Positions 1-50,432 of a stretch of DNA of 64,000 bases are shown one piece after another. The notes under the pieces are model-generated. The model was not told the origin of the DNA. It did not search any database and saw only the letters and a list, made by a program, of their open reading frames with translations. How positions within the stretch are numbered: the first letter of the stretch is position 1; every line of letters begins with the position of its first letter. The position numbers and the translations under genes are program-made. The DNA comes from Candidatus Versatilivorator sp. (lineage in GTDB: Bacteria; Acidobacteriota; Terriglobia; Versatilivoradales; Versatilivoraceae), in NCBI GenBank assembly GCA_965207735.1, contig OZ242296.1:1309808-1373807 (forward strand), given 5' to 3'.

Positions 1-887
1 TCGGGAGCCCGCATGGCCAGGGCCACCGCCTCGGACGCGGTGGGCAAGTCGGCCTGAAATTCCTCCCGCCGGTCCCAGGCTCGTTGGGCCATCCAGCGCG
101 CTGCCTTGCGTGCCAGGTCCCGGTCTCGATCGGCCACGGCCAGGAAGCTGGCGCCGAATTCCTCGACGTCCGAGTAGGAGAAACCCATGGCCACGCTGGC
201 GGAAAGAATGCCGGGCCACTGCGAGACCGATTCCAGGTCCTCATACAACCCCTTGGACGGATCCTCGTCGGTGTACTGCTTGGCGATGCTGATGATCAGA
301 GGCGGGCATTCCAGGGCTTGCACCGGTTGGATCTCTCCCCGCAGCGTCCGACCCAGCATCGAGGCAGCCTCCAGGCCCCGGGCCTTTTGGTCCAAGTGCG
401 GATTGGAGCGATAGATGGTGGTAGCGTCGGTATTGGCAATCATTTTTGGAGAGACATTGGCGTGCAGATCCAGCGTCATGACGATGGGCACATCCGGTCC
501 CACGACGTCCCGCATCCTGCGAGCCATCTCGCCATCGGCATCGGGATATCCCTCGGACACGGTGGCCCCGTGCAATGCCAGATAGAGCCCGTCCACCGGC
601 ATGGCCGCCTTCAGAGCGTCGATCGTCTGCTCCGCAATGGCCTCGAAGGTCTCTCGGACGACGGTGCCGCTCGGCATGGCGAAGGCCGCCACAAGGGGAA
701 CGGGCTCCAGGCCATTGGACTGGGCTCCCCCCAGAAAACCGCTCAGCTCATGATTGCCTCCCGTCCAGCGCTCAATCAGCCCCTTGCCCCGGGACAGGCT
801 GACCTGTTCAAAGTGCTCGTAGGTTGTCGGGGTGACTGCAAAAGTATTGGATTCGTGGATAAATCCCATAACTCCAACGCGTTTCAT
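1..887 (-). CDS. MlrC-like M81-family metallopeptidase (DUF1485 N-terminal domain); N-terminal ~295 aa in window, gene continues past position 1
   Basis: Reverse-strand translation from ATG at 887 gives MKRVGVMGFIHESNTFAVTPTTYEHF...PVDGLYLALHGATVSEGYPDADGEMARRMRDVVGPDVPI. This is clearly homologous to the complete MlrC-like paralog at 17715-19178 (HETNTF, PVDMVLLSLHGAMVADGY motifs). No stop before the window edge. The + strand ORF 84-992 is the antisense artefact. Confidence 0.7.
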   Translation of the reverse strand, partial: MKRVGVMGFIHESNTFAVTPTTYEHFEQVSLSRGKGLIERWTGGNHELSGFLGGAQSNGLEPVPLVAAFAMPSGTVVRETFEAIAEQTIDALKAAMPVDGLYLALHGATVSEGYPDADGEMARRMRDVVGPDVPIVMTLDLHANVSPKMIANTDATTIYRSNPHLDQKARGLEAASMLGRTLRGEIQPVQALECPPLIISIAKQYTDEDPSKGLYEDLESVSQWPGILSASVAMGFSYSDVEEFGASFLAVADRDRDLARKAARWMAQRAWDRREEFQADLPTASEAVALAMRAP

Positions 888-980
888 CAGGTGTTCGCCT
901 CCCTTTCATCCTTACTTTGTCGATCCATCCGGGAATTTCCTCCGGTCCCGCCCGGAAACACCACAGTAGGTGCAACCACC

Positions 981-1964
981 CTAATTCCATGAGTCCATTT
1001 CCGCCATCCATTCAGGGGGAAAGTCCATCTCCATGGCTCGCAGGGCACTATCCAGATGGCCGGTGTTGCGGGCTCCGATCAGCACGGAGTCGACCCCTTC
1101 CCGGTTGAGAACCCACCTCATGGCCAATTGAACCATGGATACCCCGGTCCGCGCCGCTTTCCGCCGAAGTTGCTCGACGACTCGAAAGCTGCGTGGGTGG
1201 AAATAGACGTCGACGTGGCCGGGAATCACGTCGAAGCGGGTGCCCTTGGGAATCTTGTCTTGATCGGCCGTGTACTTTCCGGCCAGGAATCCCGCCCCCA
1301 GCGGACTGTAGGTCACCACTCCGACCTGCTGCCGTCGACACAGGGACAGCAGTTCCGTCTCTATCTCGCGATGGGCCAGATTATAGATGGGTTGAATGAC
1401 TCCGAGGCGGGGCAGACCTTTCAGGCGACTCAGCCCGAGAGCTTCCGACAGTTGCTCGGCAGAGAAGTTGCTGCATCCGCTGCAACGAATCCTGCCGGCC
1501 CTTTTCCCTCGATCCAGCGCCGCCAACCCTTCTTCCAGCGGAACGTTGGGATCATACGAGTGAAACAGATAAAGATCAACGTAATCGGTCTGGAGACGAC
1601 GCAGGCTGTCTTCCAAAGCCTGCTGCACTTCCTGTTGGCTCTTGTTGGCCGACACCTTGGTTTGAAGGGTGACCCGGGAACGTGCGCCTCGGGATTTCAG
1701 CCAACGGCCCAGGATTTTCTCCGAGGAGTGCATTTCACCGCTCACCTCGCGCACATCTTCGATTCCCATTCGATCGCGCCGATGCTGGCGGGCCTGCCCG
1801 CCGCCGTAAGCCTCGGCTGTATCGAAAAGGGTGATGCCTCTTTCCAAGGCAGCGTCCATGATCTGAAACGAGGTGGCCTCGTCAATTTCCCTGCCGAAGG
1901 TGGCGCAGCCCAGGCCGAGACGGCTGACCGTGATGCCGCTGTTACCTAATGGCTTCGTTTCCAT
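981..1964 (-). CDS. aldo/keto reductase family oxidoreductase
   Basis: METKPLGNSGITVSRLGLGCATFG N-terminus, AKR motifs (YVDLYLFH, IGARNTGHLDSAL). GAGGAG RBS 6 nt upstream of the ATG at 1964. The longer ORF to 1988 translates the RBS. Confidence 0.85.
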   Translation of the reverse strand: METKPLGNSGITVSRLGLGCATFGREIDEATSFQIMDAALERGITLFDTAEAYGGGQARQHRRDRMGIEDVREVSGEMHSSEKILGRWLKSRGARSRVTLQTKVSANKSQQEVQQALEDSLRRLQTDYVDLYLFHSYDPNVPLEEGLAALDRGKRAGRIRCSGCSNFSAEQLSEALGLSRLKGLPRLGVIQPIYNLAHREIETELLSLCRRQQVGVVTYSPLGAGFLAGKYTADQDKIPKGTRFDVIPGHVDVYFHPRSFRVVEQLRRKAARTGVSMVQLAMRWVLNREGVDSVLIGARNTGHLDSALRAMEMDFPPEWMAEMDSWN

Positions 1965-2038
1965 TGAATTCTCTCCTCGCTTCAACAAAAAATCGAATCC
2001 GGTCCGGTGTCTACTAACGACGCTGGACGCAACTTACG

Positions 2039-2590
2039 TCAATTCCTGGCTTCGGCCATATATTCATCCCTGAGAATCCCCATGAGGATCAGGTCGTGCC
2101 ACTGGCCCCGGGAATAGTGCCAGTCCCGCAGCGCTCCCTCTTCCTTGAACCCACACTTTCGGTAGCAGCGATAACCCCGCTTGTTGGGTCGAATCACTCT
2201 CAGGCCGACCCGGTGCAGGTTCAACTCCTCGAAGCAGACTTTCAGGAATAGCCGCAGGGATTCCTCGCCCAGGCCCTTGGAGAGCGAAGTGACGTCTCCA
2301 ATCACTATCCCCACCTCGGTATTCTGTCGCCGCAAATCCAGATACTCATAGCCGATATGCCCTAGATACTTGTGGTCTTCCCGCCGGCAGATAGCAAATT
2401 TTCGATTGGCGGGATCCACGTTATTGACCTGCGCCTCGACGAAGGCCCGAGCCTGCTCCAGAGATTCGGGCCAGACGTAGGAGCCCGTCCACCATACGAT
2501 CTCATCCAGGGTGCGCCACTGGTAAAGAGTCTCTACATCGCTCAACAGGTATTCCCTGAGATACACTCTGTCTCCTAGAATGTGTGGCAT
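2039..2590 (-). CDS. GNAT family N-acetyltransferase (RimJ/RimL-like)
   Basis: 183 aa. GNAT core (HIGYEYLDLRRQ..GIVIGD..GKGLGEESLRLFLKVCFEELNLHRVGL). GGGAGGAGG RBS before the ATG. Confidence 0.8.
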   Translation of the reverse strand: MPHILGDRVYLREYLLSDVETLYQWRTLDEIVWWTGSYVWPESLEQARAFVEAQVNNVDPANRKFAICRREDHKYLGHIGYEYLDLRRQNTEVGIVIGDVTSLSKGLGEESLRLFLKVCFEELNLHRVGLRVIRPNKRGYRCYRKCGFKEEGALRDWHYSRGQWHDLILMGILRDEYMAEARN

Positions 2591-2646
2591 GATCCTCCTC
2601 CCTTCTCGGTTGAATTCGCTATCCGAAACAGACTGAAACCCACGGG

Positions 2647-3480
2647 CTACAAGAGCCGCGCGAACAACTCGCGGGCCTGATCGGCGTTGGCCGGAGGCCG
2701 TTCCTGCTGAAGCGAGCGGGTCGCCGCCAACCCTACCAGTTCCGCATTGCCGGCGGCCCGGGTGCCGTCGGGTCTGTAGAGATTGTTCTCGAATCCGATC
2801 CGGGCGTGTCCTCCTCGAGCCAGGGCGCGGTCCACGCAGGCCAATTCATGCTTCCCGAAAGCGCACAGGAACCATGCCTCTCGAAAGGAGCTGACTTCCA
2901 GCAACGGATCCAGATCGGAGGGTGCCGATTGCTGATTGGGGGTATAGCGCCCCAGCACAAAGAGGACACAGGGATCGGAATGCGGAACGATACCACGATG
3001 AACGAGCCCCGTCAGGTATCTGACCTGATCCGCATTGAACACGATGAACTGGCCAAAAATCCCTTCCGCCCGCAGCCAGTCCAGGAATTCCGCCGCCTGA
3101 GCTTCATAGGTCGGGTCGGGGAGAATTTCCCCGATGGAAAGACTCACCGCCTCCGGCCTGAGCTCCCGGACCAGGCGCATTTGCTCCTCCGGACCGTAAA
3201 GGCCGCAGGATTCGGTGGTGACCTGAATCACCAGCCTGTCTCCCACCTGGGAGCGAACGGCCTGGATGGCGGCCCGGTAGGCCGACACGTCCAGAACGTG
3301 GCCCAGATCCCGGTCCCGGACGTGGAGATGAATCATGGCGGCTCCCGCCTCCAGGCTCTCGGCGGCAGCTCGCCCCAATTCAGCAGGTGTCGTGGGTAGG
3401 TTGGGATGGTCCCGGCGGGTCTTGCGAGCCCCGTTTGGGGCGACGCAAAGGATGGCGGGACGCGAGTTCTTTGCTTGCAT
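2647..3480 (-). CDS. 3-keto-5-aminohexanoate cleavage enzyme family (BKACE / DUF849) beta-keto acid cleavage enzyme
   Basis: 277 aa. ILCVAPNGARKT N-terminus and HLHVRD motif are typical of the Kce/BKACE TIM-barrel family. Confidence 0.75.
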   Translation of the reverse strand: MQAKNSRPAILCVAPNGARKTRRDHPNLPTTPAELGRAAAESLEAGAAMIHLHVRDRDLGHVLDVSAYRAAIQAVRSQVGDRLVIQVTTESCGLYGPEEQMRLVRELRPEAVSLSIGEILPDPTYEAQAAEFLDWLRAEGIFGQFIVFNADQVRYLTGLVHRGIVPHSDPCVLFVLGRYTPNQQSAPSDLDPLLEVSSFREAWFLCAFGKHELACVDRALARGGHARIGFENNLYRPDGTRAAGNAELVGLAATRSLQQERPPANADQARELFARLL

Positions 3481-3658
3481 CTCTCGTGCCTGGGCGTACT
3501 ACCCTGGTAAGTACTGTCCGAACCATATTGAGAGAATTATTCATGATGTCTTGGATTTGTAGGACCAGGAATCGCTTTTGGGCACGTTCCGACACTTCCT
3601 CTAGCAGGCCTTCCTCATCGAGAAAATCATCAAAGTTGGTGCCGCTATGCCTATTCAT
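3380..3658 (-). pseudogene. HigA-type addiction-module antidote remnant (N-terminal FDDFLDEEGLLEEV motif only); 3' portion degenerate and overlapping the kce start
   Basis: MNRHSGTNFDDFLDEEGLLEEVSERAQKRF resembles the N-terminus of the TIGR02684-type antidote family. The C-terminal half has no HTH-like sequence and overlaps the next gene by 101 nt out of frame. No cognate toxin upstream. Confidence 0.3.
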
Positions 3659-3966
3659 GCACTAGCTTCTCTCGGAAAGGAACCCGCTGCCCGGTAAATG
3701 GGAAACAGCTCAACCACAAAAAGCACAAAAGGCACAAAACAGGGATCCAGTCTTGCCCAATCTCTTTATTGTGCCTCTTGTGGCCGTTCGACGGAGAGCC
3801 GTGTTCTGTGAACCCGGTTGCCTCCATGAGATTTGAGACCTGCCGATTCCGACTATTGTGCCTTTTGTGGACATTCAGGCACAGAGCCGACCTGCCCCTC
3901 GCATTCCCTTTCCCCTCTCCCGACCCCTAAAACCGTCGCCTACAGAATATTGCAAAAGGCTCAATC

Positions 3967-5571
3967 TCAATACGGGGAATTCCGGCGCAGCACCCGGCCG
4001 CCGCGATCTCCCGTCAAGCGACCGTCCCTGACGGTCTGAACGCCGTTCACAAACACGTGAGTCATGCCGACGGCGGTTCGGTTGGGCTCGTAGGTGGTGC
4101 CCCGTTCGCTGAAGGTCCGCGGATCGAAAATTGCCAGATCCGCGCAAGCCCCCTTCCGGATGACGCCTCTGTCCTTCAAGCCGAGGCGGCCGGCGGGAAG
4201 CGAGGTCAAGCGGCGTATCGCCTCTTCGGGGCGGAGCTTTCCCGTATCGCGCACAAAGTGCCGGTAGAACCAGGAGGCCCAGGTGTAGGCCCCGTGGAAG
4301 GACCGGTCCCTCAGAGGTCCGTCGGTGGCCAGGGCGGTGGCGTCCGACCCCACCATGCAGTGGGGATGCTCGAAGGCCAGTTCGTTTTCTTCCAGTCTGT
4401 AGGTCAGGGCCATCACCATCAGTCGGTGGATATCATCGACTTCCGCCAGCAACAGATCATAGACGGCGTCGAGAGGCTCGACGCCCATCTGCCGGCCGAT
4501 CTCGCCGATACTCTTCCCGGAAAACTCCGGGTAGGCCTGGGACTCGAAAATGACGATTCGTTCCCAGTCGTCCTGGACCAGCGAGCGAAGATGACTCCTG
4601 TAGGTCTTGAGGTCCCGGCGCACGCCGGAATCCTTCAAACGGGCGGCAACGGCTTTCGGGCCTCCTTCCAAGGCCCAGGGCGGCAAGGCCGTTCTCAGAT
4701 TGGTGGTTCCAAACAAGCGGGTGTGCATATCGAATCCCACATCCTGGCCCTGTTGGCGGGCTTCATCCACCATGCCCAGGGCCTGCCGGTAAGCCTTGCG
4801 CCCATCGGCGGTCAACCTGGCCACCACCTGAATGTGGGAGATTTGCACCGGCGCGCCCGAGGCCCGGCCTGTGCGAATGGCTTCCGCGATGGTCTCCACC
4901 GCCTCGCCGGCCCGATTCCGAGTGTGGGTCGAATAAAATCCCCCGGCGTCGGCCACCAATCGGCACAGCTCGATGATTTCCTCCTCGGGACAGGCTTTCT
5001 CGGGACCGTACTCCAATCCCGTGGAAAGCCCGAAGGCGCCTTCTTCCAGGCACTGGGACAGCAACCGCTTCATGCGACTCAGTTCCGCCGGACTGGAAGG
5101 CTTGCTGACGTCCTGAACCGCCGCCAGTCGCAGCAGACCGTTCGGCACCAGCGTCAGCACGTTGACTGACGGCCGACCTGTTTCCAGGCGTTCCAGGTAC
5201 CCGGCCATGGTGCGCCAACCGATCTCGTCGGCGGCCTGACAGCCATAGATGTTGGAACGGGCTCGTTCCGGATCCACGATGGGGGCGCAGCCGTGGCCAC
5301 AGTTGCCGACCACTTCCAGGGTGACTCCCTGCATGACTGAGCTCATGGCCCTGGGATCGACGATCAGAGTGAAGTCGGAATGGCTGTGTATATCGATGAT
5401 TCCCGGACACACCCACAGCCCGGAGACGTTCAACTCGGTAGCGCCTTCAGCTTCGCCGATCGATCCCACCTCTGAAATCCGCCCATCCCTGACCGCCATA
5501 TCGGCCTGAAAAGGGGGGCTCCCTGTCCCGTCCACAACCTCTCCCCCTCGCAGGATCAGATCGAAACTCAT
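3967..5571 (-). CDS. N-acyl-D-amino-acid deacylase (D-aminoacylase), amidohydrolase family 3
   Basis: Start MSFDLILRGGEVVDGTG. Metal-binding HSHSD motif. The ATG at 5571 overlaps the upstream gene's TGA (ATGA). The longer ORF to 5757 reads through the upstream gene's 3' end. Confidence 0.85.
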   Translation of the reverse strand: MSFDLILRGGEVVDGTGSPPFQADMAVRDGRISEVGSIGEAEGATELNVSGLWVCPGIIDIHSHSDFTLIVDPRAMSSVMQGVTLEVVGNCGHGCAPIVDPERARSNIYGCQAADEIGWRTMAGYLERLETGRPSVNVLTLVPNGLLRLAAVQDVSKPSSPAELSRMKRLLSQCLEEGAFGLSTGLEYGPEKACPEEEIIELCRLVADAGGFYSTHTRNRAGEAVETIAEAIRTGRASGAPVQISHIQVVARLTADGRKAYRQALGMVDEARQQGQDVGFDMHTRLFGTTNLRTALPPWALEGGPKAVAARLKDSGVRRDLKTYRSHLRSLVQDDWERIVIFESQAYPEFSGKSIGEIGRQMGVEPLDAVYDLLLAEVDDIHRLMVMALTYRLEENELAFEHPHCMVGSDATALATDGPLRDRSFHGAYTWASWFYRHFVRDTGKLRPEEAIRRLTSLPAGRLGLKDRGVIRKGACADLAIFDPRTFSERGTTYEPNRTAVGMTHVFVNGVQTVRDGRLTGDRGGRVLRRNSPY

Positions 5572-7328
5572 TCCGAAGAATTCTCCCTCGACCGAATTCT
5601 CAACTGCTGCCGCAGCTCGTCCGTAGCTTCCGGGTCCACCTGGCCGGCACTGTCCAGGACGACGCCATAGTCCTGCCGAGCCCTTTCTCGAGAGACCTTG
5701 TCGTTCCTGACATCCCGAGCGACTGCCGCCGGATCCCTGGTGAGGGGGTCTCCCCATCCTCCACCGCCCGCCAATCGATGATAGACCGAGTCTCCGGTCC
5801 TGATCGAGGTCGAAATCATGGTGGGCAGAATTTCAACCCCGTCGGCCCCGGCCCGCTCACTCAGTGAGGGTGCGCCCGGCTCCCCGCCACTCAGTCCATA
5901 GGGCCGATGATCGCGTCGATCGGAGCGGATGGACAGGGTGGACTCACCGGCCAGAAGGCGCCACTTCCTTTCGATGGCCAAGCCACCTCGAAACCGGCCC
6001 GCTCCCCCGCTGTCGCGCACCAGTCCATAGCGCTCGATGCACAGCGGATACTCGCTTTCGGCCTGCTCCACCGGTATGTTGCCGGCAACGTTGGATGGAT
6101 TGCACAGTCCGTCGTTCCCATCCCTGTCGGGCCGTCCACCCCAGGTTCCGGTGACCAGCTCGTAAAACACGTAGGGCTTTCCCTCGGGTCTCTTGCCCCC
6201 AAAAATCAGCAGAGAATTGCCGCCTTCTCCGGCCGCGAACACGCGGTCGGGCAGCAATCCGGCCAGGGCTCCCCGTACCGTGTCCGAAAGACGGAACCCC
6301 GTAACCCCTCGCATCGAGGATGCGGCAGGCATGCAGGCGTTGGCCACCGTGCCTTCCGGGGCGATGACCTTGAATGGCTTGAACATGCCGGCAGTGTTGG
6401 GAATGTCCGCTTGAATGACCGATCGCAGGCAGACGGCGACCACCGAGGTGGTAAACGAGAGCGTACAGTTGATGCCACCGGGCACTTGGGGAGCGGTCCC
6501 GGAAAAATCGGCGGTCAAGGTGTCGCCGCTGACGGTTAGGGTCACCTGCAGCCGGACCGGAGGACCTCCAACTCCATCGCTATCCATGTAGTCGGTAAAA
6601 CTGGAGGATCCGTCCGGCCAGGAGGCGATCTCTGAGCGAACCAGGCGCTCCGTATAGGCCAGAAGGTCTCGACAGCACCCCTGGAATGTCTCCAGGCCGT
6701 ATCGCTCGATGAGCTTCAGGACGGAATTTACTCCGATATGGGTAGCAGACAGTTGAGCTCTCAGATCTCCCAGCGTCATTTCAGGAATCCGGACGTTGGA
6801 GGCAAGCAATGCAAAGATGGATTCGTCCGGCCGGCCTCGCCGGTACAGCTTGAGCCAGGGGATTCGCAGTCCCTCCTGGAAGATCTCCGTATTGTCGCAA
6901 GCGGCGCTTCCAGGCAAACGACCTCCCAGGTCTGCGTGATGAGCGGTGCTGACGGCAAACGCGACCCGGCGATCCTTCCAGAAGACAGGGCGGACTACAA
7001 AGATGTCGGGGATGTGCATGCCGCCATCGAAGGGGTCGTTGAGAATGAACACATCCCCGGGATCGATTTCATGTCCGTATTTTTTCAAGAGGGTCCGCAT
7101 GGCAAACGGGACCGAGGCGATGTGATGCGGGAGTGTGACGCCCTGGGCGATCATCTGCCCCTCGGCGTCGCACAGGGAGGTGGAAAAGTCCAGGCAATCC
7201 CGCACAATGGTGGAATAGGCCGTGCGGTACAGGCTGAGCGCCATCTGGTCGGCTGCCGACGCCAGGCCATGTTGCACGATGGCCAAGGTGATCGGATCGG
7301 TTCTTTGTGCCGCCTCACCCGTGTTCAT
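5568..7328 (-). CDS. hyuB: hydantoinase B / 5-oxoprolinase subunit (HyuB family)
   Basis: 586 aa with hydantoinase_B hallmark regions. 4-nt ATGA overlap with hyuA. Confidence 0.9.
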   Translation of the reverse strand: MNTGEAAQRTDPITLAIVQHGLASAADQMALSLYRTAYSTIVRDCLDFSTSLCDAEGQMIAQGVTLPHHIASVPFAMRTLLKKYGHEIDPGDVFILNDPFDGGMHIPDIFVVRPVFWKDRRVAFAVSTAHHADLGGRLPGSAACDNTEIFQEGLRIPWLKLYRRGRPDESIFALLASNVRIPEMTLGDLRAQLSATHIGVNSVLKLIERYGLETFQGCCRDLLAYTERLVRSEIASWPDGSSSFTDYMDSDGVGGPPVRLQVTLTVSGDTLTADFSGTAPQVPGGINCTLSFTTSVVAVCLRSVIQADIPNTAGMFKPFKVIAPEGTVANACMPAASSMRGVTGFRLSDTVRGALAGLLPDRVFAAGEGGNSLLIFGGKRPEGKPYVFYELVTGTWGGRPDRDGNDGLCNPSNVAGNIPVEQAESEYPLCIERYGLVRDSGGAGRFRGGLAIERKWRLLAGESTLSIRSDRRDHRPYGLSGGEPGAPSLSERAGADGVEILPTMISTSIRTGDSVYHRLAGGGGWGDPLTRDPAAVARDVRNDKVSRERARQDYGVVLDSAGQVDPEATDELRQQLRIRSRENSSE

Positions 7329-9451
7329 TGGCGGGAGCCGGCTCCTTCCATGACGACATTTTGAAGGTCGTCGAGCCAGACCCGGGTGGCGGGTGGCACG
7401 ACGATGGTCGAGTCATACTCGTCGATCAACAATGGGCCCTGAGCGCCGCCCTGGAGCGTGGTTCGGGCAACCACCGGGGTGTCAATCGCCCCCCAGCGCG
7501 AACCGAAATAGGCCATCCGGCTGGGCGCCGTCTCGCCCTGCAGCTTCACGGGTTCAGGAAACCCCTCTGCCTGGTCCCGCATGGCCTTTCCCACCAGGCG
7601 CACCGCAAGTACTTCGACCCTGTTCTCGGCGGCGGACCGATGTCCGTAGAGCCGCTGGTGCTCGCCCTCAAAAGTCTGGCGAAGGGCATTGACATCCTGA
7701 GCCGTCAGTGGCCCGGCCGGAAGCGGAACCCTGATCTCCGAGGTCTGTCCTCCAAAACGCATATCCGCACTGTAGTCGAGTTGAATCCTTTCCTCGGAAA
7801 AGCCCCTCTGCTGGAACCACGGCAGCATCTCCTGTCCAAGGATCTCCCTCAGCCGCTCGATTTCCCGAGGATGGAGGGTCTCAATGGACAGCAGACAGCT
7901 GCGGACTCCATGGCGCTCGACGCTGGAGAAAAGCAGACCGAGGGCGCTGAACAGACCCGGCAATCCCGGAACCATTACCGTTCGAACCGAGAGCTCCTCG
8001 GCCAGGCCTGCCGCGTGAACCGGTCCCGATCCCCCGAATGCCATCAGGACAAACTCGCGGGGGTCCCGTCCCCGCTCGGTTGAAACCTCACGCAGGGCCT
8101 TCATGATGCGCGTATTGGCGATGCGGTGAATGCCTTCGGCAGCCTGGAAAGGGTCTATGCCCAAGGGGACGGCAATCCGGTCGTGAATGGCTCGCCGTGC
8201 GGCTTCCGGATCGATATGGACCTCCCCGTTAGCCAGCGGGCCGGGTCGGACGTAACCCAGGACAACGTTGGCATCGGTAACCGTCGGTTCCTTTCCACCC
8301 CGACGGTAGCAGGCCGGGCCCGGAACGGCTCCGGCGCTTCGGGGTCCGACATGGAGCCCGCCGGCCCGATCCAGGGTGGCAATACTCCCTCCCCCGGCTC
8401 CCACTTCGGCGATGTCAAGGCTGGGGGCGCGAATGAGCTCTCCGCTGCCGCCCATGAGCCGGCTGCCTGTAGACAAGGAAGCCCCAACCTCGTATTCGGA
8501 ATGGTAGCCAAGCCGACCGTCCTCGATCATGGAAGCCTTGGCCGTGGTTCCTCCCATGTCGAAGGCGATCACGTTGGGCAGGCCCAACTTACCCGCGGTG
8601 GCCGCGGTCGCCAGCACTCCCGCCGCGGGTCCCGACTCCAGAACGAAAACGGGCCGCGAGGCGGCATCGTCTTCGGGCGTCAAGCCCCCGGCCGACTGCA
8701 TGATGAGCAGGGGCGCCTCGATCTCCATCCGACGGAGACTTCTCCGCAGCGCACCCAGATAACCGTGCATCACCGGGCGCACATAGGCATTGACCACGGT
8801 GGTGGCCGTCCGCTCGTATTCCCTGCGTTCGGGCAGGATTTCCGAAGAAAGTGAAACCGTCAGATGGGGAAGATGCTTCCGCAGGAAGCGGCCCGCCATC
8901 ATCTCATGTTCCGGGTAGGCATAGGCATGGAGAAAACAAACGGCCACCGACTCCACGGCCTCCTGCTCCAGCCTTTTCTTCAGAGCCCACAGCTCCGACT
9001 CGCGCAGGCGGGTCCAGACATCCCCGTTGGCCAGGATGCGTTCATCCACCTCGAAACGCAGGTAGCGCTCTACCAGTTCCCCCGGCTTTTCAAAGAACCA
9101 GTCATAGAGCACCGGCACCCGAATTCTTCTCAACTCCAGAACGTCCCGGAACCCCTTGGTGGTGACCAGTGCCGTCTTCGCTCCCCTCCGCTCCAGCACT
9201 GCATTGGTCGCGACCGTCGTACCATGGGCGACTTCTCTGACGCGACCCCCGGAAATCCCTGTCGAGCCGAGCCAATCCCGAATGGCCGCGATGACCGCCC
9301 GTTCAAAATTCGGTGGAGTCGACGGAACCTTTTGACTGAACAGATTCCCCTGCCCGTCCACGACCACCACGTCGGTGAAGGTCCCCCCAACGTCGGCTCC
9401 AATGCGTATGGCGCCGCGGGGGCCGTTGGATCTCATGAACCGAAACGACAT
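7325..9451 (-). CDS. hyuA: hydantoinase A / 5-oxoprolinase subunit (HyuA family)
   Basis: 708 aa. N-terminal IGADVGGTFTDVVVVD ATPase motif and hydantoinase_A domain. Confidence 0.9.
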   Translation of the reverse strand: MSFRFMRSNGPRGAIRIGADVGGTFTDVVVVDGQGNLFSQKVPSTPPNFERAVIAAIRDWLGSTGISGGRVREVAHGTTVATNAVLERRGAKTALVTTKGFRDVLELRRIRVPVLYDWFFEKPGELVERYLRFEVDERILANGDVWTRLRESELWALKKRLEQEAVESVAVCFLHAYAYPEHEMMAGRFLRKHLPHLTVSLSSEILPERREYERTATTVVNAYVRPVMHGYLGALRRSLRRMEIEAPLLIMQSAGGLTPEDDAASRPVFVLESGPAAGVLATAATAGKLGLPNVIAFDMGGTTAKASMIEDGRLGYHSEYEVGASLSTGSRLMGGSGELIRAPSLDIAEVGAGGGSIATLDRAGGLHVGPRSAGAVPGPACYRRGGKEPTVTDANVVLGYVRPGPLANGEVHIDPEAARRAIHDRIAVPLGIDPFQAAEGIHRIANTRIMKALREVSTERGRDPREFVLMAFGGSGPVHAAGLAEELSVRTVMVPGLPGLFSALGLLFSSVERHGVRSCLLSIETLHPREIERLREILGQEMLPWFQQRGFSEERIQLDYSADMRFGGQTSEIRVPLPAGPLTAQDVNALRQTFEGEHQRLYGHRSAAENRVEVLAVRLVGKAMRDQAEGFPEPVKLQGETAPSRMAYFGSRWGAIDTPVVARTTLQGGAQGPLLIDEYDSTIVVPPATRVWLDDLQNVVMEGAGSRQ

Positions 9452-9546
9452 TGACGATGGGAGAGAAGGCGGTACCCGAGGGCTGGATTCGGGGTTGGGG
9501 TAGTCTCGGAATGAAACGAAATATTCGTCTTCCGGCCCGGTTGGAA

Positions 9547-10476
9547 TCAGGACGGCAGCAGAACGTCCCGGTTCTCGGCGACAATCCGCTTGATGTTGCG
9601 GATACAGGCACGATCCAGAGGGTAGCCCAAGTAGTTCGACCAGTTCCGGAACACGCCCAGCTCAACCAGAAGACGCTTCAGCCCCGAGAGCCAGCAGGCC
9701 AAACGGTCGCCGCCGTAGACCGGGTAGAGCATGCGCGTGGTGCGAAGCTGTATTCTTTCGGCGCGGGCATAGTCGCGAGCCGCCACCGCCTGGACCATCT
9801 GAGCCGCCAGGTAACCCGTGAAGATCCCGCCGCCCAACAGCAGGCCGTCATATCCGGCTCTCAAGTAATCCAGACACTGAAATTCATTGCCGTTGAGCAG
9901 GCGCAACCGGGGGCGCTTCCGCCGGGCGGCCAAAGCAATCTCTCGTCGCTGATTGTCGGACGAGCTGTCTTTGACCATGACGACGCGGCGGTCGGCGTAA
10001 ATGGTAGCGAGAACCGACTCCGGGATGACCACCGAACTGTGGCGCCCACGATCATAGATGCCAACCGGCAACTCACTCTCTCTCAGAATCTGACGGTAGT
10101 GATTGGTCAGGGTCTGGGGATTGGCATTGAGAAAGAAGAGCGGTGGCGCGACCACGGCAATTTGAGCTCCATCCGCCTTGGCCGCCCGAATATTGGCGAC
10201 CACGCGGCTGGCCGAGTTGTCGGTAACCTGAACCGCAATCATCAGCCGATCTCGAGAGAACTTGCTGACCGCCCTCACCAATCGCCGTCGCTCCGCATCC
10301 GGCATCCAGGGACCCTCTCCGCAAGTGCCGGCCAGAAAGAGGCCCCGGACTCCCAGGCGCAGATGGTGCTCGACCATTTTTTTGACTGCCACCGTGTCGA
10401 CTTTCAAATCCTTGGTAAACGGTGTCGGCGTGGCCGACCAGACCCCTCCGAGTCTTTTCAGCTGGAGCTTGGTCAT
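9547..10476 (-). CDS. dihydrodipicolinate synthase/N-acetylneuraminate lyase family (DapA-like) aldolase
   Basis: 309 aa. DapA-family motifs (LFLAGTCGEGPWM, active-site Lys region VVMVKDSS). AGGAG RBS before the ATG. First gene of the minus-strand operon. Confidence 0.85.
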   Translation of the reverse strand: MTKLQLKRLGGVWSATPTPFTKDLKVDTVAVKKMVEHHLRLGVRGLFLAGTCGEGPWMPDAERRRLVRAVSKFSRDRLMIAVQVTDNSASRVVANIRAAKADGAQIAVVAPPLFFLNANPQTLTNHYRQILRESELPVGIYDRGRHSSVVIPESVLATIYADRRVVMVKDSSSDNQRREIALAARRKRPRLRLLNGNEFQCLDYLRAGYDGLLLGGGIFTGYLAAQMVQAVAARDYARAERIQLRTTRMLYPVYGGDRLACWLSGLKRLLVELGVFRNWSNYLGYPLDRACIRNIKRIVAENRDVLLPS

Positions 10477-10542
10477 CGTTGGACTCCTGAGCCCGCACTT
10501 CTCACCGGGCCGCTTCCAGGGTGGAAAAAATTATGGAACCAA

Positions 10543-11769
10543 CTAACCGGTCGGCTTTTCGATCCGATAGAGGTGACTGTCGGTTCTCAAGTATATGGCG
10601 CGGCCATGCACGGCAAAAGAGGCCAGGGTGCGACCCGGCAACCGGTTGGTGCCCAGCTTCTTGAACGCCTTCCCGACCTCCAGGATCGTGGCCTCTCCCT
10701 CTTCGTTCAGCAAATAGATTTTCCCGTCGGCATACACTGGCGAAGCCGAATATTCTCCCGGCAGCCTTTCCTGCCAGTGGTGCTTGCCGGTCCGGGCGTC
10801 CAGACAAGATGCGATGCCTCGATCGCTCACCATGTAGAGCTCCTCTCCCACCAACAGTGGAGAAGGATTCAGCGGCACCCCTCGTTTCAAGGTCCAGGCC
10901 ACGTGACTCTCGGTCACATCCCCCTGGCCATCGGGGCGGATCGCATAGAGTGAGGGATGCGGGTAACCCGTGCAAATATAGACCAATCCCAGGCCAAAAA
11001 CAGGGCGAGGAACCAGCGAAAACCCATCGTAGCGCACCCGCCAGATCTCCTCTCCGGAGAGTGGATGGTAGGTCACGACCTGATCGCCTCCCGTGCTGAC
11101 CAATTGGGGCTTACCCTCCACCTGTATGGTCAACGGCGTTGTGTAAGCCATCCGCCCCTTGCGAGACTTTTTCCAGCGCAGCTTTCCCGTATGCTTGTCC
11201 AGGGCCGCCACGAACTGCAGGTCGGTGCCGTCGCAGTTGTAGATGAGAAGGTCCTGGAACAGGACCGGAGAACTGGCCGGCCCGTGGCGATGATCGTACT
11301 CGAACCGGTGCTTCCAAAGGATCTTGCCGTCGCTGCGAAGGCTGGCCGAGCCGAATGCTCCAAAGTGGACATAGACTCTGTCCCCTTCCAGAACGGGAGT
11401 GGGAGAGGCATGGCTGTTCTTGGAATGGATGGAGCCCGCCTCCTCCTGGCGGAAGATCTCCAGGTCGTGGAGCAGTTTTCCATCGCTTCGGCTCAGACAC
11501 AAGGCTCGCAGCGAACGTCCTTCGTCAACCGAGGCGGTCAACCAGATCTTCTCGCCTTGAATGACCGGTGACGACCAGCCGTTTCCCGGTAGGGGAACCT
11601 TCCAGGCGATATTCTTGGTTTCGCTCCATTCCTTTGGGAGGCCACGGGCGGAAGCATGACCCTGGCCCCCCGGCCCCCTGAACTGTGGCCAGTCCTCCTC
11701 TTGAGCGGACATTCGATGTTGGAACAGGACCAGAGTAGACAGAAGAAGAAGGATGGCGGGACGCCTCAT
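10543..11769 (-). CDS. PQQ-like beta-propeller repeat protein (BamB/PQQ-binding-like), secreted
   Basis: Signal peptide MRRPAILLLLSTLVLF. Repeated W-rich propeller blades. AAGGAG RBS before the ATG at 11769. The longer ORF to 11883 is a leader extension. Confidence 0.8.
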   Translation of the reverse strand: MRRPAILLLLSTLVLFQHRMSAQEEDWPQFRGPGGQGHASARGLPKEWSETKNIAWKVPLPGNGWSSPVIQGEKIWLTASVDEGRSLRALCLSRSDGKLLHDLEIFRQEEAGSIHSKNSHASPTPVLEGDRVYVHFGAFGSASLRSDGKILWKHRFEYDHRHGPASSPVLFQDLLIYNCDGTDLQFVAALDKHTGKLRWKKSRKGRMAYTTPLTIQVEGKPQLVSTGGDQVVTYHPLSGEEIWRVRYDGFSLVPRPVFGLGLVYICTGYPHPSLYAIRPDGQGDVTESHVAWTLKRGVPLNPSPLLVGEELYMVSDRGIASCLDARTGKHHWQERLPGEYSASPVYADGKIYLLNEEGEATILEVGKAFKKLGTNRLPGRTLASFAVHGRAIYLRTDSHLYRIEKPTG

Positions 11770-12293
11770 TATGAACTCCTTGCCGAATTCCCGATTCGTT
11801 TGGCAGCCTCCGCCCGAATTTCCTGCCATGAACCGGAAGCCCGGTGGGAAATACGGGCGAAGTACCCTGAAAGCAAGACGCAACGTTATGCCAACTTACC
11901 TAATGATTCAACTTAATTGAACACACAGGGTTGCGATCCACACCCCTCAATCACCCTGCCGGACCCTATCAGGCCACCATGACCATTGGGACGGCGCTTT
12001 CAATCGAGTCCCTATCCTATCTCAAAGTATTGATTTTAAGGACCATTGATGGCAGCGCTTCCTGCCGGTCCGCAGGCAACACCCCCGGTTGCCCTTGCAT
12101 CACACTCGGGACATTCCATGAAATTCGTCAACCGGCCATCAGCCCTGGACACCGCTCAAGACTCAAACTGGAAGGTTTTGATCGTGGAAATACCATTTCT
12201 CTCCAGCTATACTGATCCAGTTCAGGCCTTTCCGACGAGTCCGTTATTTTCCGGCAAGTGAAAACCATCGCTAACACCGGGAGGTCCTCAGCC

Positions 12294-17714: not shown

Positions 17715-19178
17715 ATGAAACTCTTTCTCGCCTGCCTGGGCACGGAAACCAACACCTTTTCTCCTTTCCCCACCGGGTACCGTACCTTCGAGGAAACCTG
17801 CCTGGTCCGAGGCGGCGACCATGGCCGCAACCCGTTTCTCTTTGCAGTGCCACTGGTGCTCTGGCGCCAACTGGCCTCCGAGCGCGGCTGGGCGGTGGAG
17901 GAGAGCCTCTGCGCCTTCGCCCAGCCTTCCGGAGTGACACTGCGTAGCGTCTACGAGTCCTTCCGGGAAGAAATCCTGGAGGATCTCCGGCGGGCCCTGC
18001 CGGTCGACATGGTTCTGCTCAGTCTGCACGGAGCCATGGTCGCCGACGGATATGACGACTGCGAGGGGGACCTGCTGGCTCGCATTCGCGCCCTGGTCGG
18101 CCCAAAGGTACCGGTCGGGGCGGAATTGGATCTCCACTGTCATCTGACCCACCGGATGGTGGAGGAGGCCACCGCCATCGTCAGCTTCAAGGAGTACCCT
18201 CACACGGATGCCGCCGACCGGGCGCGGGAGCTCTTTCAGATCCTGTCCGCGACTGCCTCGGGCTCCCTCAAGCCTCACATGGCCCTCTACGATTGCCGCA
18301 TGATGGGCATCTACCACACCACCTCCGAACCCATGAAGAGCTTTCTGGAGCAAGTGAAGCACCTGGAGCAGCAGAAAGGGATCGTTTCGATCTCCATTGC
18401 CCATGGGTTTGTCTGGGGTGACGTTTCCGACATGGGAACTCGGATACTGGTTCTCAGCGACGGCAAACCCCGGGAAGGAGCTCGCCTGGCCGAATCCCTG
18501 GGCCGTCAACTGTTCCAGCTGCGTCATCGGCTCCAGCCCGACTACAAGACCATAGACGAGGCCCTGGGCGAGGCCTCGACCGGGGACGGAGATCCGGTGG
18601 TATTGGCGGACGTGGCCGACAACCCGGGCGGAGGCGCTCCCGGAGATTCCACCTTTATTCTCCAGGCGCTGGTCGATCGCCGGATGAAGGATGCCGGCCT
18701 GGCCTGCATCTGGGATCCGATGGCTGTAGCCGTGGCCAGTGAAGCGGGAGAAGGGGCCCGATTCGACCTGCGCCTCGGAGGCAAGACGGGGCCGAGCTCG
18801 GGCCGCCCCCTGGATCTTCGGGTGACGGTAACCAGGGTGGTCCCCGGCGCCCGCCAGACCTTCGGCAGCGGCGCCAACCGGTCGGTCTCGTCTCTGGGAG
18901 ATGCCGTCGCTCTGCGCGCCGGCGGTATAGACATCGTGGTCAACTCCATTCGCACTCAAACCCTGGGCAGCGACGCCTTCACCAGTCTGGGCATCGATCC
19001 TCGGACCAAGCGGATTTTGGTGGTGAAATCCATGCAGCATTTCCACGCTGCTTTCGCGCCCCTCGCCCGGCAAATCCTGTATGTGGACACACCGGGAGCC
19101 CTGGTAAGCGACCTGACGCGAATCCCCTTTGGCAACGCGGACCGGAGCAAGTGGCCAATCTGCGAGACTGTGACCTGA
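17715..19178 (+). CDS. MlrC-like M81-family metallopeptidase (DUF1485 + MlrC C-terminal domain), complete
   Basis: 487 aa. GTETNTFSP, HGAMVADGYDD, ADNPGGGAPGDST motifs. Paralog of the gene at 1-887. Confidence 0.85.
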   Translation: MKLFLACLGTETNTFSPFPTGYRTFEETCLVRGGDHGRNPFLFAVPLVLWRQLASERGWAVEESLCAFAQPSGVTLRSVYESFREEILEDLRRALPVDMVLLSLHGAMVADGYDDCEGDLLARIRALVGPKVPVGAELDLHCHLTHRMVEEATAIVSFKEYPHTDAADRARELFQILSATASGSLKPHMALYDCRMMGIYHTTSEPMKSFLEQVKHLEQQKGIVSISIAHGFVWGDVSDMGTRILVLSDGKPREGARLAESLGRQLFQLRHRLQPDYKTIDEALGEASTGDGDPVVLADVADNPGGGAPGDSTFILQALVDRRMKDAGLACIWDPMAVAVASEAGEGARFDLRLGGKTGPSSGRPLDLRVTVTRVVPGARQTFGSGANRSVSSLGDAVALRAGGIDIVVNSIRTQTLGSDAFTSLGIDPRTKRILVVKSMQHFHAAFAPLARQILYVDTPGALVSDLTRIPFGNADRSKWPICETVT

Positions 19179-50290: not shown

Positions 50291-50432
50291 CCGCATTATC
50301 AAGAAATTCGTTTTGTGACTCTTGTGCTTTTTGTGGTGAATCCGCATTACTTGCCAGACCGCACCCGATATTGAAAACGGCAGGACATCACGTTTGCCGG
50401 CAAAATGACCTGCCCCTGCCAATTGTGCAAAA
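50291..50432 (+). repeat. dispersed ~140-bp repeat (family G2) immediately 3' of tRNA-Cys
   Basis: aattcgttttgtg(actcttgtg)ctttttgtggtgaa...cgcacccgatattgaaaacggcag.a.atcacgtttgccggcaaaatgacctgcccc... ~85% identical to 59757-59895. A related divergent copy lies at 3700-3900. Confidence 0.45.

What the first reader, a model, noticed from the sequence alone, without database searches (positions are those of the whole stretch)
1..10476. Nine-gene minus-strand operon combining hydantoinase/oxoprolinase, D-aminoacylase, BKACE, DapA-like lyase, GNAT, AKR and MlrC-like peptidase
Genes run head-to-tail with 4-nt ATGA overlaps (hyuA/hyuB, hyuB/D-aminoacylase) and short gaps. In order: DapA-family lyase, HyuA, HyuB, N-acyl-D-amino-acid deacylase, Kce-type beta-keto-acid cleavage enzyme, GNAT acetyltransferase, aldo/keto reductase, MlrC-like M81 peptidase.

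This combination is not a textbook pathway. It suggests catabolism of an unusual (possibly D- or N-acylated, cyclic-amide) amino acid or peptide: ring opening by HyuAB, deacylation, then C-C cleavage by BKACE/DapA-like enzymes. A second MlrC paralog at 17715-19178 hints at peptide-derived substrates.
Basis: inference. Interest (0 to 1): 0.5.

Follow-up and report, generated by a model that had tools for sequence, protein, structure and literature searches.

The report
Mosaic gene array, one conserved triad
The genes are real, but comparison with other genomes shows a lineage-specific patchwork rather than one pathway; only three genes (hyuA, hyuB and a D-aminoacylase-like hydrolase) travel together widely, and their substrate is unknown.

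Summary
The gene content is confirmed. Eight minus-strand genes lie in 1-10476: M81/MlrC-like (cut by the window edge), AKR, GNAT, BKACE, D-aminoacylase-like amidohydrolase (DAA), HyuB, HyuA and a DHDPS-family lyase. A ninth same-strand gene, a secreted PQQ_2 beta-propeller, sits at 10543-11772. Both ATGA overlaps are real.

- None of 77 proteobacterial loci holding the nearest BKACE relatives carries any other family of the array.
- None of 83 metagenome loci holding DAA relatives carries the DHDPS, GNAT, AKR or PQQ gene. HyuB lies directly upstream of DAA in 28 of the 50 loci with enough upstream sequence.
- Sister-lineage contigs have PQQ-DHDPS-GNAT-AKR with no hyuA, hyuB, DAA or BKACE.
- In three of five related Versatilivoraceae genomes, hyuA and hyuB carry independent large deletions while the flanking genes stay intact.
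- The DAA-BKACE spacer varies from 20 nt to 4 kb and collects toxin-antitoxin genes.

The array is therefore a mosaic. Its one broadly conserved module is hyuA-hyuB-DAA. I infer an ATP-dependent opening of a cyclic amide followed by a metal-dependent deacylation. Elsewhere the triad often sits beside TRAP transporters and D-amino-acid enzymes.

The parts
1..887 (-). N-terminal 295 aa of an M81 (MlrC-like, DUF1485) metallopeptidase-family protein. The gene runs off the window start.
   Evidence: Pfam PF07364, E 7e-96. NCBIfam microcystinase MlrC scores 108 bits against a cut-off of 999, so it is not MlrC proper. Full-length orthologues of 496-498 aa are in L001-L003.
981..1964 (-). Aldo/keto reductase, 327 aa, part of the lineage 'backbone'.
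   Evidence: PF00248, E 5e-70. Adjacent to the GNAT gene in sister-lineage contigs L167-L170. At 61% identity it sits instead with MR_MLE, PhyH and HpcH_HpaI genes.
2039..2590 (-). GNAT N-acetyltransferase (Acetyltransf_3), 183 aa, part of the backbone.
   Evidence: PF13302, E 7e-20. 89-97% identical in the related genomes and 77-78% in the sister lineage.
2647..3480 (-). BKACE (DUF849) beta-keto-acid cleavage enzyme family protein, 277 aa, not a Kce orthologue.
   Evidence: PF05853, E 1e-62. Zn ligands H51, H53 and E231 are kept. Kce residues E14 and D231 are replaced by R19 and N232, both invariant in the alignment. The NCBIfam Kce model scores 135 bits against a cut-off of 382. None of 77 proteobacterial relatives shares the neighbours.
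3481..3966 (-). Variable non-coding spacer. It holds a truncated remnant (ORF start at 3658) of an 84-aa gene and inverted copies of the REP-like motif CACAAAAGGCACAA.
   Evidence: 51% GC. The first ~49 aa of ORF 3380-3658 match an intact gene at L002 8962-9216. The motif occurs 8 times in the window against 0.37 expected. The spacer is 20 nt in L001, ~0.7 kb in L005, ~3.4 kb in L004, and ~4 kb with HigB/HTH/HicB genes in L002.
3967..5571 (-). D-aminoacylase-like amidohydrolase (DAA), 534 aa, third gene of the conserved triad. Its start overlaps the hyuB stop (ATGA).
   Evidence: PF07969. D-aminoacylase 1m7j at E 8e-67 and N-acyl-D-Glu deacylase 3gip at E 2.5e-65. Metal and catalytic residues H62, H64, C91, H216, H246 and D410 are kept. 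Relatives at 60-74% identity include MAGs named by their sources as Planctomycetota, Gemmatimonadaceae and Latescibacterota.
5568..7328 (-). HyuB, the metal-dependent hydrolytic subunit of an ATP-dependent hydantoinase/oxoprolinase/lactamase-type enzyme, 586 aa.
   Evidence: PF02538, E 8e-175. Best solved relatives are N-methylhydantoinase 7hk5 (E 6e-93) and caprolactamase 6yra_B (E 2e-78). D47, H105, D108 and H130 match, by spacing, the CapB metal site described in PMC8453981.
7325..9451 (-). HyuA, the ASKHA-fold ATP-binding subunit, 708 aa. Its stop overlaps the hyuB start (ATGA).
   Evidence: PF05378, PF01968 and PF19278. ATP motifs D20VGGTFTD, D298MGGT and G374AVPGP match the CapA motifs of PMC8453981.
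9547..10476 (-). DHDPS/NAL-family class I aldolase-type lyase, 309 aa, part of the backbone.
   Evidence: PF00701, E 1.5e-29. The TIGR00674 dapA model scores 97 bits against a cut-off of 206. K169, Y141 and the GTCGE motif are kept. 93-95% identical in related genomes and 75-76% in the sister lineage, where it sits next to the PQQ gene and ~650 nt from the GNAT gene.
10543..11772 (-). Secreted PQQ_2/BamB-like beta-propeller, 409 aa.
   Evidence: PF13360, E 8e-23. A hydrophobic N-terminal signal-like segment is visible in the translation. Always upstream of the DHDPS gene in related and sister-lineage loci.

Best explanation
The region is a co-directional gene array in an uncultured Acidobacteriota genome (Terriglobia, 'Candidatus Versatilivoraceae'). 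It is an evolutionary mosaic, not one pathway operon.

It has a lineage 'backbone' of PQQ-propeller, DHDPS-like lyase, GNAT and AKR. Relative to the sister lineage, this backbone is interrupted by a block holding hyuA-hyuB-DAA and a BKACE gene. An M81 peptidase-like gene and further hydrolase genes follow downstream.

The only unit with evidence of functional coupling beyond this lineage is the triad hyuA-hyuB-DAA. Its proposed working is inferred from the families. HyuA uses ATP to activate the carbonyl of a cyclic amide (a hydantoin or lactam type, carrying a carboxylate). The activated intermediate is hydrolysed at the HyuB metal site, which opens the ring. The translationally coupled DAA, a mononuclear-zinc amidohydrolase of the N-acyl-D-amino-acid deacylase group, then removes the resulting N-acyl or N-carbamoyl group and releases a free amino acid, probably of D configuration.

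In this lineage the triad is dispensable. The DHDPS-like, BKACE, GNAT, AKR and M81 genes most likely serve other, unrelated catabolic reactions.
For: Shown:
- Family assignments and intact catalytic motifs in all enzymes.
- ATGA overlaps link only hyuA/hyuB/DAA.
- DAA-anchored scan of metagenome contigs: 83 loci at 37-74% identity. HyuB is present in 39 and HyuA in 33. Among 50 loci with at least 1.9 kb of upstream sequence, HyuB lies directly upstream on the same strand in 28, mostly with gaps of 0-60 nt. Among 31 loci with at least 4.1 kb upstream, both subunits are present in 17. DHDPS, GNAT, AKR and PQQ appear in 0 loci; BKACE appears once (26% identity, opposite strand) and MlrC once (opposite strand, 10 kb away).
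- BKACE-anchored scan of species-representative genomes: 77 proteobacterial loci at 45-56% identity. None carries a credible relative of the other eight families within 10 kb; the only hit is one 27%-identity AKR match on the opposite strand in L018. Their own recurrent neighbours are a fused TRAP permease and an RpiR-type regulator, both judged from the sequences only.
- Sister-lineage contigs L167-L169 (PQQ 76%, DHDPS 75%, GNAT 78%, AKR 66-69% identical) read PQQ-DHDPS-GNAT-AKR. No trace of hyuA, hyuB, DAA or BKACE is found at E<=1e-3.
- Three of five related genomes carry different large internal deletions in hyuA and hyuB. One of them has also lost most of DAA. PQQ, DHDPS, BKACE, GNAT, AKR and MlrC stay full-length at 73-97% identity.
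- The DAA-BKACE junction ranges from 20 nt to ~4 kb and has taken up HigB/HTH/HicB-type genes.
- Recurrent neighbours of the triad elsewhere: TRAP DctP/Q/M (15/13/13 loci), LysR (9), S15 hydrolase (14), MR_MLE (8), DAO (7), PhyH (6), and a D-serine-dehydratase-like PLP enzyme (5; in L102/L103 it lies between hyuB and DAA). L086 adds an Asp/Glu-racemase-family gene.

Inferred:
- The order of the two reactions, the cyclic-amide nature of the substrate, and its D configuration.
Against: - Within the six available Versatilivoraceae genomes the whole array is syntenic and co-directional. In L001 the DAA-BKACE gap is only 20 nt, so co-transcription in some strains is possible.
- The direction of the event (insertion of the block here, or deletion in the sister lineage) is not resolved. 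Composition is uniform, with GC3 of 0.69-0.76.
- Many metagenome contigs are short, so absence of neighbours is partly a sampling effect. Sixteen of the 50 loci with enough upstream sequence (>=1.9 kb) carry no HyuA or HyuB match anywhere on the contig, so DAA also occurs without them.
- The deletions in related genomes come from MAG assemblies and were not checked against reads.
- No substrate has been tested. The DAA subgroup has a ~50-residue insertion absent from the solved D-aminoacylases and might act on something other than an N-acyl-D-amino acid.
Confidence: 0.72

Rival explanations
1. All eight or nine genes form one operon encoding a lineage-specific pathway for an unusual cyclic, N-acylated or D-amino-acid-containing peptide. 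The M81 peptidase trims it, HyuAB opens a ring, DAA deacylates, and the BKACE and DHDPS-like enzymes cleave the carbon skeleton. GNAT and AKR tailor intermediates.
For: Same strand throughout, with gaps of 56-95 nt apart from one spacer. The gene order is kept in related genomes at 71-93% BKACE identity, and in L001 DAA and BKACE are only 20 nt apart. All enzymes keep their catalytic residues.
Against: - There is no co-conservation outside one family-level lineage.
- The sister lineage lacks the central block but keeps the flanks adjacent.
- hyuA and hyuB have been lost independently three times with no loss of the neighbours.
- Toxin-antitoxin and other genes are inserted between DAA and BKACE.
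- The BKACE has Arg and Asn where Kce binds an amino group. That argues against an amino-keto-acid derived from an amino acid (inference from my recollection of the Kce structure).
Confidence: 0.1
2. The backbone PQQ-propeller, DHDPS-like lyase, GNAT and AKR is itself a functional operon, for example for catabolism of a sugar acid or amino sugar by a class I aldolase with a reductase and an acetyltransferase. The hyuAB-DAA-BKACE block is passenger DNA that landed inside it.
For: The four genes are adjacent and co-oriented in both the Versatilivoraceae and the sister-lineage contigs, at 66-78% protein identity. The DHDPS and GNAT genes are the most conserved of the array, at 93-97%.
Against: The conservation spans only closely related Acidobacteriota and may be plain inherited synteny. 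At 61% AKR identity the neighbours are different: MR_MLE, PhyH and HpcH_HpaI in one case, PTE and DUF3830 in another. A 650-nt gap separates the DHDPS and GNAT genes in the sister lineage.
Confidence: 0.25
3. HyuAB here is an ATP-dependent carboxylase (of the acetone or acetophenone carboxylase type), not a hydrolase. DAA would then be functionally unrelated.
For: The family includes carboxylases. The NCBIfam acetophenone carboxylase models match weakly, at 162-258 bits.
Against: - The best matches are hydrolases: N-methylhydantoinase at E 6e-93 and caprolactamase at E 2e-78, against acetone carboxylase at E 2e-16.
- The caprolactamase CapA and CapB models score 494 and 325 bits.
- There is no gene for a small gamma subunit next to hyuAB.
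- The coupling to an amidohydrolase is tight and widely conserved.
Confidence: 0.05

Closest known systems
Hydantoin-utilisation operon hyuA-hyuB-hyuC(-hyuE) of Pseudomonas sp. NS671, and the creatinine/N-methylhydantoin pathway (from my own knowledge)
   Same: A two-subunit ATP-dependent HyuA/HyuB opens a cyclic amide. A co-transcribed second hydrolase then removes the N-carbamoyl or N-acyl group to give an amino acid. The ATP motifs and the metal site are intact here.
   Different: The second enzyme here belongs to the amidohydrolase superfamily and is D-aminoacylase-like. It is not an M20 or nitrilase-type carbamoylase, nor a cysteine-hydrolase N-carbamoylsarcosine amidase. There is no racemase in the window. 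The substrate is unknown.
Caprolactamase CapAB of Pseudomonas jessenii (PDB 6yra; PMC8453981)
   Same: The same two-subunit architecture, the same conserved CapA ATP-binding motifs and the same CapB Asp-His-Asp-His metal site.
   Different: The scores are far below the equivalog cut-offs: 494 and 325 bits against 1000. The gene order here is A then B, with a coupled deacylase, and the neighbours are different.
N-acyl-D-amino-acid deacylases (Alcaligenes D-aminoacylase 1m7j; Bordetella N-acyl-D-glutamate deacylase 3gip/3giq)
   Same: The same fold. The His-x-His, Cys, His, His and Asp residues are conserved.
   Different: This protein has a ~50-residue insertion (about residues 293-341) that is conserved in its own subgroup. 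That subgroup is usually encoded directly after hyuB. Its specificity has not been tested.
Kce, the 3-keto-5-aminohexanoate cleavage enzyme of lysine fermentation (PDB 2y7d), type member of BKACE
   Same: TIM-barrel BKACE family. Zn ligands H51, H53 and E231 and Arg227 are conserved.
   Different: The two acidic residues that hold the substrate amino group in Kce (E14 and D231, from my recollection of the Kce structure paper) are R19 and N232 here. The NCBIfam score is 135 bits against a cut-off of 382. No lysine-fermentation genes are nearby.
MlrC microcystinase (M81 family)
   Same: The M81 N-terminal domain is shared.
   Different: The score is 108 bits against a cut-off of 999 for MlrC proper. 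No mlrA, mlrB or mlrD genes were seen. Only the N-terminal part of the gene lies in the window.

Membership tests
   All genes are on the minus strand. There are two 4-nt overlaps and gaps of 56-95 nt, but one spacer is 486 nt. Promoter and terminator scans do not exceed chance.
   0 of 77 BKACE-anchored loci carry a credible relative of any other family (one 27% AKR match only). 0 of 83 DAA-anchored loci carry DHDPS, GNAT, AKR or PQQ. The sister lineage lacks the central block. hyuAB has been lost three times independently.
   No transcript data are available.
ATP-dependent hydantoinase/oxoprolinase/lactamase (HyuA/HyuB) | Adjacent A and B subunit genes with full-length Pfam domains. | tested here: met
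   PF05378, PF01968 and PF19278 in HyuA. PF02538 in HyuB covers 1-519 of 519 model positions. The genes overlap by ATGA.
ATP-dependent hydantoinase/oxoprolinase/lactamase (HyuA/HyuB) | ASKHA ATP-binding motifs in A and the Asp-His-Asp-His metal site in B. | tested here: met
   D20VGGTFTD, D298MGGT and G374AVPGP in HyuA. D47, H105, D108 and H130 in HyuB. Both sets match the motifs listed in PMC8453981.
Caprolactamase CapAB (NCBIfam equivalog) | A score above the curated cut-off. | tested here: not met
   494 and 325 bits against a cut-off of 1000.
N-acyl-D-amino-acid deacylase group of the amidohydrolase superfamily | The metal-binding and catalytic residues of D-aminoacylase (HxH, Cys, His, His, Asp). 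| tested here: met
   H62, H64, C91, H216, H246 and D410 align with the 1m7j ligands. They are invariant across 29 homologues.
N-acyl-D-amino-acid deacylase group of the amidohydrolase superfamily | Hydrolysis of N-acyl-D-amino acids. | not testable with these tools
   This needs an enzyme assay.
Kce (3-keto-5-aminohexanoate cleavage enzyme) | Zn ligands, plus the acidic residues that bind the substrate amino group, plus the NCBIfam cut-off. | tested here: not met
   The Zn ligands are kept. E14 is replaced by R19 and D231 by N232. The score is 135 bits against a cut-off of 382. It is a member of the BKACE family, but not Kce.
DapA (4-hydroxy-tetrahydrodipicolinate synthase) | Schiff-base Lys and catalytic Tyr, plus the TIGR00674 cut-off. 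| tested here: not met
   K169 and Y141 are present. The score is 97 bits against a cut-off of 206. It is a member of the DHDPS/NAL superfamily, not DapA.
MlrC microcystinase | The NF041767 cut-off. | tested here: not met
   108 bits against a cut-off of 999. The gene is truncated by the window edge.
Classical hydantoin-utilisation cluster (hyuABCE) | A carbamoylase (M20 or nitrilase type) and a hydantoin racemase are present next to hyuAB. | tested here: not met
   Neither family occurs among the genes of 1-12300. DAA occupies the position after hyuB.

The most novel reading that the evidence does not exclude
The hyuA-hyuB-DAA triad is widespread in metagenomes, and DAA relatives occur in several phyla. 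It is often joined to a TRAP transporter, a LysR regulator, S15 hydrolases, and DAO or D-serine-dehydratase-like enzymes. It could encode an undescribed ATP-dependent route for a D-configured cyclic amide carboxylate, such as a 5-substituted D-hydantoin, a 5-oxo-D-proline derivative or an N-acyl lactam. In this route an amidohydrolase-superfamily deacylase would replace the classical carbamoylase.
Probability: 0.3. Interest if true: 0.5.

Novelty: new variant of a known kind. Interest (0 to 1): 0.27.

Why it matters
Same-strand arrays in genomes of uncultured bacteria are easily read as pathways. Here, comparative context splits such an array into unrelated pieces and so prevents a false pathway annotation.

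The useful residue is a three-gene module of known enzyme families that is conserved and translationally coupled but has no assigned substrate. It is common in soil and marine metagenomes. It would be a reasonable target for substrate discovery, which could start with ligand screening of the TRAP binding protein. It could also yield ATP-driven lactam- or hydantoin-opening biocatalysts that give D-amino acids.

Tried and rejected
- Exact look-ups of window proteins (HyuB, and the 100%-identical AKR cluster P0241) found no contig on record. The source contig itself could not be fetched; its lineage was inferred from L004-L006.
- Promoter and terminator consensus scans over 1-12400 did not exceed shuffled expectation: 4 against 2.6 and 15 against 10.6. 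They say nothing about transcription units.
- Rfam found no riboswitch or other RNA family in 1-12400.
- GC and GC3 per gene are uniform, so composition cannot show whether the hyuAB-DAA-BKACE block was acquired.
- Literature searches combined hyuA/hyuB, N-methylhydantoinase, oxoprolinase, D-aminoacylase, BKACE/DUF849 and Versatilivoraceae. None found a paper describing this gene combination. One search was rejected for syntax.
- The small ORF 3380-3658 was considered as a ninth gene or an antitoxin. It has no Pfam or NCBIfam hit. Only its first ~49 residues are homologous to an intact 84-aa gene in L002; the rest is an out-of-frame read into BKACE. It was rejected as a functional gene.
- A carboxylase function for HyuAB was rejected on similarity ranking and the lack of a gamma subunit gene.

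Full report
**1. Observation**

ORF listing and Pfam scans confirm the families and their order on the minus strand:
- M81/DUF1485, <1-887, cut by the window edge
- aldo/keto reductase (AKR), 981-1964
- GNAT, 2039-2590
- BKACE, 2647-3480
- an Amidohydro_3 protein, 3967-5571, whose best solved relatives are D-aminoacylases; called DAA below
- HyuB, 5568-7328
- HyuA, 7325-9451
- a DHDPS-family protein, 9547-10476

That makes eight genes, not nine. A ninth same-strand gene, a secreted PQQ_2 beta-propeller, lies at 10543-11772, outside the stated range.

Both ATGA overlaps (hyuA/hyuB and hyuB/DAA) are present. The other junctions are 56-95 nt. The exception is a 486-nt spacer of 51% GC between DAA and BKACE.

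No protein reaches an NCBIfam equivalog cut-off. 'Kce', 'DapA', 'MlrC' and 'caprolactamase' are therefore superfamily labels only.

**2. Origin**

The closest loci come from MAG chromosomes labelled Terriglobia, 'Candidatus Versatilivorator' and 'Candidatus Versatilivoraceae'. Three ENA assemblies (L001-L003) show the same order. They also show that the array continues beyond the window as MlrC-Cyclase-Lactamase_B_3-AP_endonuc_2-Lactamase_B_3.

**3. Is the array co-conserved?**

Three anchors were used.

*(a) BKACE.* The scan used one genome per GTDB species. Only three species have a BKACE above 70% identity, and all three are in this lineage. The next 77 loci, at 45-56% identity, are proteobacterial. 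None carries a credible relative of the M81, AKR, GNAT, DAA, HyuB, HyuA, DHDPS or PQQ protein within 10 kb (tblastn E<=1e-10, at least 50% coverage). The single hit is a 27%-identity AKR match on the opposite strand in L018. Their own recurrent neighbours look like a fused TRAP permease and an RpiR-type regulator, judged from the sequences only.

*(b) DAA.* The scan returned 83 metagenome loci at 37-74% identity.
- HyuB is present in 39 loci and HyuA in 33.
- Among 50 loci with at least 1.9 kb upstream, HyuB lies directly upstream on the same strand in 28, mostly 0-60 nt away.
- Among 31 loci with at least 4.1 kb upstream, both subunits are present in 17.
- Several further loci have the three genes in another order.
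- DHDPS, GNAT, AKR and PQQ relatives are found in none. BKACE appears once (26% identity, opposite strand) and M81 once (opposite strand, 10 kb away).

*(c) AKR.* Contigs with AKR at 66-69% identity (PQQ 76%, DHDPS 75%, GNAT 78%) read PQQ-DHDPS-(about 650 nt)-GNAT-AKR. They show no trace of hyuA, hyuB, DAA or BKACE at E<=1e-3, and no M81 gene downstream. At 61% AKR identity the neighbours change again, to MR_MLE, PhyH and HpcH_HpaI in one case and to PTE and DUF3830 in another.

**4. Within the lineage**

Three of five related genomes carry different large internal deletions in hyuA and hyuB.
- L003 (= L006) keeps only HyuA residues 66-176 and 669-708, fragments of HyuB, and fragments of DAA.
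- L004 keeps HyuA 524-706 and HyuB 201-231 plus 453-582.
- L005 lacks HyuA 49-190 and HyuB 1-132.

In all of them PQQ, DHDPS, BKACE, GNAT, AKR and M81 remain full-length at 73-97% identity.

The DAA-BKACE junction is 20 nt in L001, 486 nt in the window, about 0.7 kb in L005 and about 3.4 kb in L004. In L002 it is about 4 kb and holds a trypsin-like protein, a TPR protein, and HigB, HTH and HicB-like genes.

The window's spacer is an eroded version of that insert. The first ~49 codons of ORF 3380-3658 match an intact 84-aa gene in L002, and the spacer DNA aligns to the L002 and L004 inserts.

**5. Interpretation**

I distinguish four pieces:
- a backbone of PQQ-DHDPS-GNAT-AKR
- a block of hyuA-hyuB-DAA plus BKACE that is present here and absent in the sister lineage (the direction of the event is unresolved; composition is uniform)
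- an insertion hotspot between DAA and BKACE
- downstream hydrolase genes

The only unit whose coupling extends beyond shared ancestry is hyuA-hyuB-DAA.

**6. How the triad most likely works**

The catalytic apparatus is intact in all three proteins.
- HyuA carries the three ASKHA ATP motifs: D20VGGTFTD, D298MGGT and G374AVPGP.
- HyuB carries the metal site Asp47-His105-Asp108-His130. Both sets match those defined for caprolactamase (PMC8453981).
- The best solved relatives of HyuB are hydrolases: N-methylhydantoinase at E 6e-93 and caprolactamase at E 2e-78. Carboxylases rank far lower (acetone carboxylase at E 2e-16).
- DAA keeps the D-aminoacylase ligands H62, H64, C91, H216 and H246 and the catalytic D410.

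By analogy with the mechanism proposed for caprolactamase and oxoprolinase, HyuA would phosphorylate the lactim tautomer of a cyclic amide and HyuB would hydrolyse the activated intermediate. DAA would then remove the exposed N-acyl or N-carbamoyl group. This order of steps is inference.

The neighbours of the triad elsewhere point to a carboxylate substrate and D-amino-acid chemistry:
- TRAP DctP/Q/M in 15, 13 and 13 loci, with DctP directly after DAA
- LysR in 9 loci
- S15 hydrolases in 14 loci
- MR_MLE in 8 loci and DAO in 7
- a D-serine-dehydratase-like PLP enzyme, located between hyuB and DAA in L102 and L103
- an Asp/Glu-racemase-family gene in L086

**7. The other genes**

The BKACE keeps its Zn ligands (H51, H53, E231). 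It has invariant R19 and N232 at the positions where Kce has E14 and D231. As I recall from the Kce structure, those two residues hold the substrate's amino group. The substrate here is therefore probably not an amino-keto acid.

The DHDPS-like protein keeps the Schiff-base Lys169 and Tyr141, but it is not DapA by score.

The second M81 paralogue, at 17715-19178 on the + strand, is only 32% identical to the first. An M81 gene in the matching position and orientation is kept in the sister lineage, where it sits next to a YdjC gene.

**8. Comparison with known systems, and novelty**

The triad works like the hyuA-hyuB-hyuC logic of hydantoin utilisation. The difference is that an amidohydrolase-superfamily deacylase takes the place of the carbamoylase. 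No paper describing this combination was found. It is a new variant of a known kind and of modest interest. The nine-gene 'pathway' as proposed is not supported.

**9. Limits**

- There are no transcript data.
- Many metagenome contigs are short.
- The deletions seen in MAGs were not checked against reads.
- No neighbourhood scans could be anchored on DHDPS, GNAT or M81.
- The substrate is unknown.

Noticed in passing
window 3715-3869, 50313-50335, 59617-59630, 59781-59794: A short REP-like motif, CACAAAAGGCACAA, occurs 8 times on both strands (up to 2 mismatches) against 0.37 expected by chance. The four copies in the DAA-BKACE spacer form inverted pairs.
   Followed up: partly
window 3380-3658 (-): A truncated remnant of an 84-aa gene that is intact at L002 8962-9216. 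Only the first ~49 residues are homologous; the rest reads out of frame into the BKACE start. It marks an eroded insertion at a junction that collects toxin-antitoxin genes in related genomes.
   Followed up: yes
L003/L006 7264-9151; L004 3826-4859; L005 4745-7715: Three related Versatilivoraceae genomes carry different, independent internal deletions in hyuA and hyuB. L003 has also lost most of DAA. All flanking genes are intact, so the triad appears to be repeatedly decaying in this lineage.
   Followed up: yes
window 12258-14618 (+): A divergently oriented FecR/DUF6600 protein of 786 aa. Its C-terminal ~300 residues form a Ser/Pro/Arg-rich low-complexity tail with near-identical tandem segments (…SRPSPSVSRPSSRSSSRVSTPSRPSPPRSTSRVRS…). 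A DUF6600 gene holds the same position in L003 and L168.
   Followed up: no
L086 1-20000 (8.08-Mb chromosome): A DAA orthologue (67% identity) lies in a long same-strand cluster: HyuA, HyuB, GFO_IDH, three S15/PepX_C hydrolases, MR_MLE, DUF2330, DAO, PhyH and an Asp/Glu-racemase-family gene. This looks like a richer D-amino-acid or peptide catabolic context for the same triad.
   Followed up: partly
window 17715-19178 (+), and L167 1204-2595 / L168 1415-2929: The second M81/MlrC-like paralogue is 32% identical to the one in the array. An M81 gene in the matching position and orientation is kept in the sister lineage, next to a YdjC-family gene. The array's own M81 gene is absent there.
   Followed up: partly
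window 21368-23920 (+): An 850-aa protein with Big_2, PSCyt2 (DUF1549) and PSD1 (DUF1553) domains. I know this architecture mainly from Planctomycetota; here it is in an acidobacterial context.
   Followed up: no
L171-L173 (Bryobacteraceae), around the AKR gene: The AKR orthologue at 61% identity sits in AKR-MR_MLE-PhyH-AKR-HpcH_HpaI. In the sister lineage (L167-L169) an HpcH_HpaI aldolase and a PhyH gene lie just beyond the AKR gene. The AKR's more persistent partners may therefore be an HpcH/HpaI aldolase and PhyH, not GNAT or M81.
   Followed up: no
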